A stretch of 64,000 nucleotides of DNA from the human T2T-CHM13v2.0 reference genome, Homo sapiens. Where the stretch lies: NCBI RefSeq assembly GCF_009914755.1, contig NC_060940.1; one strand, 5' to 3'. The notes beneath the pieces are model-generated. The model was not told where the DNA came from and did not search any database. It saw only the letters and a program-made list of their open reading frames with translations. A program made the position numbers and the translations under genes. Positions 62,821-63,744 of this stretch are shown here, in pieces (positions within the stretch are counted from its first letter, which is position 1; each line of letters starts with the position of its first letter).

Positions 62821-63744
62821 TACATGCTTCAACGTGGATGAACTGTGGAAACAGGCTTAGTCAATACATGCTTCAACACAGATGAACCGTGGAAACAGGC
62901 TTAGTCAATACCTGCTTCAACGCGGACGAACCGTGGAAACAGGCTTAGTCAATACGTGCTTCAACGCGGACGAACCATGGAAACAGGCTTAGTCAATACC
63001 TGCTTCAACGCGGACGAACCGTGGAAACAGGCACGGTCAATACGTGCTTCAACGAGGACGAACCATGGAAACAGGAGTGGTCAATACGTGCTTCAATGCG
63101 GATGAACCATGGAAACAGGCGTGGTCAATACGTGCTTCAGTGCGGACGAACCATGGAAACAGGCGTGTTCAATACGTGCTTCAGTGCGGACGAACCATGG
63201 AAACAGGCGTGGTCAATACGTGCTTCAGTGCGGACGAACCATGGAAACAGGCACGGTCAATACGTGCTTCAGTGCGGACGAACCATGGAAACAGGCACGG
63301 TCAATACGTGCTTCAACGCGGATGAACCGTGGAAACAGGCATGGTCAATACGTGCTTCAACGCGGACGAACCGTGGAAACAGGCGTGGTCAATACGTGCT
63401 TCAACGCGGACGAACCGTGGAAACAGGCGTGGTCAATACGTGCTTCAATGCGGACGAACCGTGGAAACAGGCGTGGTCAATACGTGCTTCAGTGCGGACG
63501 AACCATGGAAACAGGCGTGGTCAATACGTGCTTCAACGCGGATGAACCGTGGAAACAGGCATGGTCAATACGTGCTTCAATGCGGACGAACTGTGGAAAC
63601 AGGCGTGGTCAATACGTGCTTCAACGCGGACGAACCGTGGAAACAGGCATGGTCAATACGTGCTTCAATGCGGACGAACCGTGGAAACAGGCGTGGTCAA
63701 TACGTGCTTCAACGCGGACGAACCGTGGAAACAGGCTTAGTCAA
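62821..63744 (+). repeat. VNTR, 21 x 44 bp, consensus TACGTGCTTCAACGCGGACGAACCGTGGAAACAGGCGTGGTCAA
   Basis: 21 contiguous 44-bp units counted, no indels, substitutions only; the repeated peptide in three frames confirms a unit length not divisible by 3. Confidence 0.97.

What the first reader, a model, noticed from the sequence alone, without database searches (positions are those of the whole stretch)
62821..63744. L1M-derived 44-bp VNTR that built a homotypic array of 17 canonical HIF elements (TACGTGCT) and a CpG-dense patch
Seen: 21 indel-free units. Edge units keep the L1-like state (TACATGCT in units 1-2, TACCTGCT in 3 and 5, GGCTTAGTC in 1-4 and 21). Units 4 and 6-21 carry TACGTGCT, many also carry GCGTG, and all carry TGGAAA, with up to about 6 CpG per unit in an otherwise CpG-depleted intron. 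Both flanks are contiguous old L1M 3' sequence, so the array grew from one 44-bp L1 segment and then homogenised a CpG-gaining variant in its interior. Established: TACGTGCT is the HIF-1 site of the EPO enhancer (RCGTG core) and binding is blocked by CpG methylation; GCGTG is the AhR/ARNT core and TGGAAA the NFAT core. Inference: a copy-number-variable, methylation-gated hypoxia enhancer, a natural analogue of multimerised HRE reporters.
Basis: partly seen in the sequence, partly recalled or inferred. Interest (0 to 1): 0.72.

Follow-up and report, generated by a model that had tools for sequence, protein, structure and literature searches.

The report
L1-derived minisatellite under cryptic SNX29 exon
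A 44-base piece of an old jumping gene was copied 21 times inside the human SNX29 gene and carries 17 matches to the low-oxygen (HIF) DNA motif, but published lists show no HIF binding and no effect on gene expression there, so it is likely a mostly silent repeat that would matter only if it can start a shortened SNX29 transcript when it loses methylation.

Summary
The sequence observation is right: 21 indel-free 44-bp units, 17 with TACGTGCT, 85 CpG (observed/expected 1.35 against 0.30 for the window). The array is single-copy and grew from the ORF2 C-terminal end of an old L1; 0 of 16 related L1 copies have the HIF core. It is already catalogued as a length-variable VNTR (GRCh38 chr16:12,116,696-12,117,482) and is flagged 'not an eQTL' in GTEx. 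The HIF-enhancer reading is not supported by what could be checked: no peak at the locus among 20,613 HIF1beta peaks from three cell lines (coordinate conversion recalled), no EPO-type ancillary CAC (0 of 17), CpG-decay variants that suggest methylation, and other arrays with as many cores. It is still the largest exact TACGTGCT array found in the genome (14 of 16 triples). Verdict: an ordinary transposon-derived minisatellite with one testable twist, a possible methylation-gated cryptic promoter.

The parts
62250..62511 (+). Left part of an old L1 copy (ORF2 C-terminal coding region, broken by stops and frameshifts)
   Evidence: Two open pieces match L1 ORF2p 1153-1185 (E 0.003) and 1210-1237 (E 1e-4); 2215 candidate relatives, listed ones 71-77% identical
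62512..62803 (+). Alu inserted into the L1, with target-site duplication at 62501-62511 and 62804-62814
   Evidence: Duplicated 11-mer on both sides; Alu identity recalled from its sequence
62820..63743 (+). Minisatellite, 21 x 44 bp; 17 TACGTGCT, 9 GCGTG, 21 TGGAAA, 85 CpG, GC 52.4%, CpG o/e 1.35
   Evidence: single locus in the genome; catalogued and length-variable (identity checked)
62820..62907 (+). Units 1-2, closest to the pre-expansion L1 state (no HIF core, 1 CpG each)
   Evidence: related copies have CA at the core position in 10 of 16 and CG in 0 of 16
63744..64000 (+). Right part of the same L1 copy, continuing from unit 21
   Evidence: 1519 candidate relatives, listed ones 72-82% identical; many run collinearly through one unit into this flank
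62784..63897 (+). RefSeq exon of a non-selected SNX29 transcript that spans the whole array; first-exon-like
   Evidence: Hub annotation; no AG before its start, unlike the three selected exons
63876..63903 (+). Two ATGs (63876 in a strong context, 63894) and an L1-derived phase-1 GT donor after 63897, in frame with the next SNX29 exon
   Evidence: donor matches the consensus at 6 of 9, real SNX29 donors at 6-7 of 9; next exon at G000:C16:12162891, 8993 bases on, also phase 1

Best explanation
This is a single-locus, length-variable minisatellite grown from 44 bases of an old L1 copy, and its HIF motifs and CpG richness are likely by-products of a few A/T-to-G/C changes copied from unit to unit, leaving an array that is likely methylated and silent in most cells apart from occasional cryptic transcripts. 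Steps. Shown: L1 origin, one locus, edge units nearest the old state, four changes that reached the majority of units (unit positions 5, 20, 38, 40), all A/T to G/C, one of which made the HIF core. Published: length differs between haplotypes; not an eQTL; no HIF1beta peak in three lines. Inferred: spread by slippage or unequal exchange with GC-biased conversion; germ-line methylation, from the CpG-type variants; low-level starts in or near the CpG patch that use an L1 donor to join the next SNX29 exon and so gave the RefSeq model.
For: Origin and polarity. Variation: GRCh38 786 bp, assemblies 878.1 +/- 66.6 bp (n = 17), CHM13 925 bp; eqtl False. No SNX29 or locus row in the Lu 2023 eVNTR file. 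No chr16 peak at hg19 12,205,000-12,215,999 among 20,613 HIF1beta peaks or at 12,209,000-12,212,999 among 7,153 MCF7 peaks; reads were 50 bases and 661 of 876 50-mers are unique within the array. The four derived G/C-to-A/T transitions seen in interior units all hit CpG bases (12 of 25 G/C positions; P about 0.06). The HIF CpG escaping 4-5 such events has a chance of 0.40-0.48. 929 overlapping ACGTGC triples and 2192 TACGTG triples genome-wide; 6 of 16 hand-picked loci hold 23-44 ACGTG. TE-derived minisatellites are common: 7,276 of 31,472, 601 from L1 (PMC3389668). RefSeq lists enhancers elsewhere in the window but none here (hub annotation).
Against: A spliced RefSeq exon sits exactly over the array, so some RNA evidence probably exists. 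The array is the only stretch of the window near 1 kb that meets loose CpG-island criteria and has kept 85 CpG. It gives 14 of the 16 exact TACGTGCT triples at spacings of 16-77, although the reversed 8-mer gives 11. Interior CpG gain is not a general rule in my comparison arrays (8 up, 7 down, 1 tie of 16), so GC-biased conversion rests on four changes. The ChIP negative covers three cancer lines at a strict threshold, with Bowtie mismatches lowering real mappability and a recalled hg19 conversion. Only 346 eVNTRs were found among 30,362 tested, so 'not an eQTL' is the usual result. Methylation was not measured.
Confidence: 0.62

Rival explanations
1. The array is an orphan CpG-island-like alternative promoter. 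In cells where it is unmethylated it starts a transcript that splices into the next SNX29 exon and encodes SNX29 without its RUN domain but with its PX domain; HIF may raise its output.
For: RefSeq exon 62784-63897 covers the array and has no acceptor; phase-1 donor in frame with the next exon; ATG at 63876 in a strong context; RUN exon upstream at C16:12079008 and PX exon downstream at C16:12514790; demethylation exposes HIF sites in repeats and gives HIF-dependent cryptic transcripts (PMC7384226).
Against: 26 ATGs lie between the annotated start and the in-frame ATG, so the model as annotated would translate poorly. The donor is a family-wide L1 sequence of middling strength, and one frame in three fits by chance. 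The model's start falls inside the Alu end. SNX29 was not found in the supplements of a transposon-gene chimera atlas. GC 52.4% (best 500 bp 54.8%) is below the stricter island threshold. I could not see whether the transcript is curated, predicted or coding.
Confidence: 0.22
2. One reading: a copy-number-variable, methylation-gated HIF enhancer that acts on SNX29 or a neighbouring gene in normal hypoxia.
For: 17 exact EPO-type cores plus 9 GCGTG on one strand; largest exact TACGTGCT array found; no CpG transition at the core in units 6-21; length-variable; many HIF targets lack the ancillary box (PMC12154756).
Against: No HIF1beta peak in three lines including RCC4; no eQTL; ancillary slot is CGG or AGG in 17 of 17; HIF binds only a small share of RCGTG sites (PMC3300008); none of the 30 listed titles (of 34 papers holding SNX29, hypoxia and HIF) points to SNX29 as a HIF target.
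Confidence: 0.1
3. The array acts through something other than HIF, for example NFAT or KLF-type sites, local methylation spreading, or splicing of the long SNX29 intron.
For: TGGAAA in 21 of 21 units and GGCGTGG in 8 (motif names recalled); a usable donor 154 bases downstream.
Against: Motif matches only; no eQTL; no data on binding or splicing were available.
Confidence: 0.06

Closest known systems
Transposon-derived single-locus minisatellites (Ahmed and Liang 2012, PMC3389668)
   Same: Units copied locally from one segment of a transposon; one locus; units more like each other than like any other place in the genome.
   Different: Nothing in kind. This one has 21 units and gained CpG; its 93% unit match is just under that paper's 95% filter, and I did not search its list.
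Catalogued VNTR chr16:12,116,696-12,117,482 (GRCh38) in Lu et al. 2021 (PMC8275641)
   Same: It is this locus: the listed 21-mer matches three places in the array with one mismatch and nothing else in the window with fewer than seven.
   Different: The row gives length, population and eQTL fields only; no motif, origin or exon is noted.
HIF-bound repeats and cryptic transcripts unmasked by demethylation (D'Anna et al. 2020, PMC7384226)
   Same: HIF cores in repeat DNA, CpG-gated, beside a possible cryptic start.
   Different: Those are enriched in LTRs and were shown by ChIP and RNA-seq; here the cores are in a tandem array and no peak is listed.
EPO 3' enhancer hypoxia response element
   Same: The same 8-mer TACGTGCT (printed in PMC12154756).
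   Different: EPO has one core plus CAC 8 bases downstream, whose mutation cuts reporter output by about 70-80%; here 17 cores and no such CAC.

Membership tests
Transposon-derived single-locus minisatellite | Head-to-tail units over 20 bp | tested here: met
   21 x 44 bp, no indels
Transposon-derived single-locus minisatellite | Unit homologous to one segment of a transposon that continues on both sides | tested here: met
Transposon-derived single-locus minisatellite | Array at one place in the genome | tested here: met
   self plus two single 45-base L1 matches at 87%; no segmental duplicate of the flanks among the 40 scored matches in each
VNTR | Length differs between people | tested here: met
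   786 bp GRCh38, 878.1 +/- 66.6 bp in 17 assembled haplotypes, 925 bp here
Expression-associated VNTR | Length or motif associates with expression of a nearby gene | tested here: not met
   eqtl False; no row in the Lu 2023 eVNTR file; the eMotif file was cut when stored, so motif effects are not fully excluded
Functional hypoxia response element | RCGTG core | tested here: met
   17 TACGTG, 9 GCGTG
Functional hypoxia response element | HIF occupancy in cells | tested here: inconclusive
   Absent from peak lists of three lines; limited by mappability, threshold and a recalled hg19 conversion
Functional hypoxia response element | Unmethylated core and hypoxia-induced activity | not testable with these tools
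   Only indirect CpG-decay signs of methylation
EPO-type element with ancillary box | CAC 8 bases after the core | tested here: not met
   0 of 17 (definition)
AhR xenobiotic response element | TNGCGTG (consensus recalled) | tested here: not met
   AG precedes the core in 9 of 9
CpG island | Loose rule: 200 bp, GC 50%, o/e 0.6 (recalled) | tested here: met
   950-bp run, 85 CpG
CpG island | Strict rule: 500 bp, GC 55%, o/e 0.65 (recalled) | tested here: not met
   Best 500 bp has GC 54.8%
Alternative promoter / first exon | Exon without acceptor, with a donor in frame with the host gene | tested here: met
Alternative promoter / first exon | Capped starts and reproducible junction reads | not testable with these tools
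   No RNA data on hand; not found in one chimera atlas

The most novel reading that the evidence does not exclude
A minisatellite built itself into a latent hypoxia-inducible promoter: once demethylated (germ line, placenta, tumours, DNMT inhibitors), its 15-17 HIF cores drive a transcript that an L1 donor splices in frame into SNX29, making a RUN-less, PX-containing isoform whose level scales with allele length.
Probability: 0.1. Interest if true: 0.65.

Novelty: new member of a known kind. Interest (0 to 1): 0.3.

Why it matters
As it most likely stands it is a tidy example of how a tandem repeat can turn dead L1 sequence into a CpG-dense motif cluster without any function, and a caution against reading motif arrays as enhancers. 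If the cryptic promoter is real and HIF-responsive, it would show a promoter made by repeat turnover rather than carried in by the transposon, with a natural allele series for testing how HIF output depends on site number, and a truncated form of a Rab14-binding sorting nexin (interaction reported in PMC13596360).

Tried and rejected
Coding role of the array: open frames of 198 and 221 residues exist, but the frame that joins the next SNX29 exon has stops inside and after the array; the Pfam hits of the 221-residue frame (DUF4522, NinX) are taken as chance scores summed over repeats. RNA family or hairpin: no Rfam match at the array, no inverted repeat. Segmental-duplicate copy without the expansion: none among the scored matches. 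A general rule of interior CpG gain: not seen in 16 comparison arrays, which were picked for holding HIF-like motifs and are a biased set; an unbiased set of minisatellites was not obtained, so this stays open. Higher-order period: mean unit distance by lag is flat (2.5-4.2), with no clear period. Search for 'chr16 121'-type terms in the peak file returned nothing and had no positive control, so it is not counted. The sigma-70 scan is not applicable to human DNA. Literature: SNX29 + VNTR 0 papers; SNX29 + tandem repeat 11 papers, no title on this locus; SNX29 absent from the supplements searched in PMC8024321, PMC11701250 and PMC12999487. The papers I looked up as Sulovari 2019 and Garg 2021 were not held under the identifiers tried; these, the unsearched supplements of PMC8327921 and PMC3389668, and the aza-treated and A549 peak sets of PMC7384226 may bear on the claim.

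Full report
What is there. Tandem Repeats Finder gives one array at 62820-63744, period 44, 21.0 copies, 93% matches, no indels. A search of the whole genome finds the array once, plus two single 45-base matches at 87%.

Origin. The right flank has 1519 candidate relatives, of which the 40 scored are the locus itself and 39 copies at 72-82%; the left has 2215 candidates. Two open pieces of the left flank match human L1 ORF2p at residues 1153-1185 and 1210-1237, so the unit comes from the last coding stretch of ORF2. An Alu with an 11-base target-site duplication interrupts the L1 and ends 16 bases before the array. I aligned 21 related loci to the stub plus unit 1, kept 17 at 60% identity or more and dropped one duplicate; one or two of the 16 look like poor alignments. 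At the HIF-core position they read CA in 10, TG in 2, TA in 2, other in 2, CG in none. Of the six CpGs in the majority unit, one (positions 16-17) looks like an old L1 CpG, one (14-15) is unclear, and four arose in this copy. The four changes that separate most units from the edge units (positions 5, 20, 38, 40) are all A/T to G/C. That fits GC-biased conversion during array turnover (recalled mechanism), but it is four events, and 16 comparison arrays show no general interior CpG gain (8 up, 7 down, 1 tie).

Signs of methylation. The four derived G/C-to-A/T transitions found in interior units (positions 14, 25, 26, 38) all fall on CpG bases, which are 12 of 25 G/C positions (P about 0.06); the direction at position 38 is uncertain. 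This suggests germ-line methylation. The HIF CpG shows no transition in units 6-21, but with 4-5 independent events over six CpGs that has a chance of 0.40-0.48, so it is no evidence of selection.

Is a HIF array unusual? For the exact 8-mer it is: 14 of 16 triples at spacings of 16-77 bases are this array. The same pattern read backwards gives 11 triples, so an arbitrary 8-mer has arrays of similar total size. With looser cores there are 929 overlapping ACGTGC triples and 2192 TACGTG triples (most of the 100 listed are AT- or GT-rich simple repeats). Of 16 loci picked from those lists, 13 gave arrays that passed my filter, 6 hold 23-44 ACGTG and 2 hold 17 or more TACGTG. The EPO element needs CAC 8 bases after the core for full activity, though many targets lack it (PMC12154756, passages); here that slot is CGG or AGG in all 17.

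Published data. Lu et al. 2021 (PMC8275641; passages and supplement search) list GRCh38 chr16:12,116,696-12,117,482 with reference length 786, assembled length 878.1 +/- 66.6 in 17 haplotypes, population differentiation 0.0004 and eqtl False. Its listed 21-mer matches the array at three places with one mismatch, which ties the row to this locus. That study found 346 eVNTRs among 30,362 tested. The eVNTR file of Lu et al. 2023 (PMC10234305; supplement search only) has no row for SNX29, TNFRSF17, NPIPB2 or the locus; its eMotif file was cut when stored and one file was not searched. D'Anna et al. 2020 (PMC7384226; passages, sections 5 and 12, two of four supplements searched) show that HIF binds unmethylated sites and that demethylation exposes sites in repeats and induces cryptic transcripts. 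Using a recalled GRCh38-to-hg19 offset of 93,857, the array lies near hg19 12,210,550-12,211,340. No chr16 peak falls in 12,205,000-12,215,999 among 20,613 peaks from RCC4, MCF7 and SK-MEL-28 (an eight-digit chr1 coordinate was retrieved, so the search works), nor in 12,209,000-12,212,999 among 7,153 MCF7 peaks. Reads were 50 bases and 75% of 50-mers are exactly unique within the array, so a strong peak should have been partly visible, though mismatch-tolerant mapping lowers this. HIF is known to use only a small share of RCGTG sites (PMC3300008, passages). Transposon-derived minisatellites make up 7,276 of 31,472 (PMC3389668, abstract and first part of the results). I found no paper on this locus in the searches (listings only).

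The exon. The annotation lists an exon of another SNX29 transcript at 62784-63897. It starts inside the Alu end with no AG before it, whereas the three selected exons have AG, so it looks like a first exon. It ends after ATG plus one base at a GT donor inside the L1 flank; the last selected exon in the window also ends in phase 1, and the next SNX29 exon, at G000:C16:12162891, is entered in phase 1 and stays open. A second in-frame ATG at 63876 has a strong context. A RUN-domain exon lies upstream of the window and a PX-domain exon far downstream, so the product would lack RUN and keep PX. That this exon joins that next exon is my inference. Against a real isoform: 26 upstream ATGs if the annotated start is right, a donor no better than several unused ones nearby, a donor motif shared by many L1 relatives, and no SNX29 entry in the four supplements of a chimera atlas (PMC12999487, supplement search only).

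Verdict. Most likely (0.62) a neutral, mostly methylated L1-derived VNTR whose motifs are passengers, with occasional cryptic transcripts. A methylation-gated alternative promoter gets 0.22, a working HIF enhancer 0.10. The locus is already catalogued; its origin, HIF-core content and overlap with an in-frame first-exon model were not found in print in the searches named. Interest 0.3: ordinary in kind, but cheap to test with public methylation, CAGE and ChIP data.

Noticed in passing
window 17575-20153, - strand: Broken L1 ORF2 in the long masked stretch: endonuclease piece (19620-20153) and reverse transcriptase piece (18286-19668, RVT_1 E 1e-24), antisense to SNX29.
   Followed up: partly
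window 35751-36630: Second CpG-rich patch (620 bp by the loose rule) at the 5' end of LOC642696. By my recalled coordinate conversion the blood methylation probe cg04635642, listed for very-low-birth-weight adults in PMC11798856 (one passage), would fall here.
   Followed up: partly
window 10282-10382: A 50-bp unit duplicated in tandem at 98% identity, possibly a young two-copy repeat.
   Followed up: no
window 63119-63691: In nine units GCGTG is followed 11 bases later by the next unit's ACGTG on the same strand, so the cores come in pairs about one helical turn apart; this is not the EPO core-plus-CAC geometry.
   Followed up: no
L034:1215-3419 (G000:C3:56.55 Mb) and L036:2243-3046 (G000:C1:1.37 Mb): Arrays with 43 and 17 TACGTG; L031, L032, L039 and L040 hold 23-33 ACGTG. 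They are natural comparisons for any HIF test of the SNX29 array.
   Followed up: partly
L028:2373-2695 (G000:C1:242.80 Mb): A 41-bp, 7.8-copy array whose unit looks Alu-derived (recalled resemblance) and carries 5 TACGTG: a parallel case of a transposon-derived repeat gaining the HIF core.
   Followed up: no
window 63106-63771: The 221-residue open frame through the array scores against Pfam DUF4522 (E 2e-9), taken as a chance match summed over repeats.
   Followed up: partly
window 47523-47670, - strand: Rfam SRP RNA match above threshold, probably an Alu monomer.
   Followed up: no
L017 and L018 (G000:C10:48.56 Mb and 47.56 Mb): Two near-identical loci in opposite orientation, apparently a segmental duplication; counted once.
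   Followed up: no
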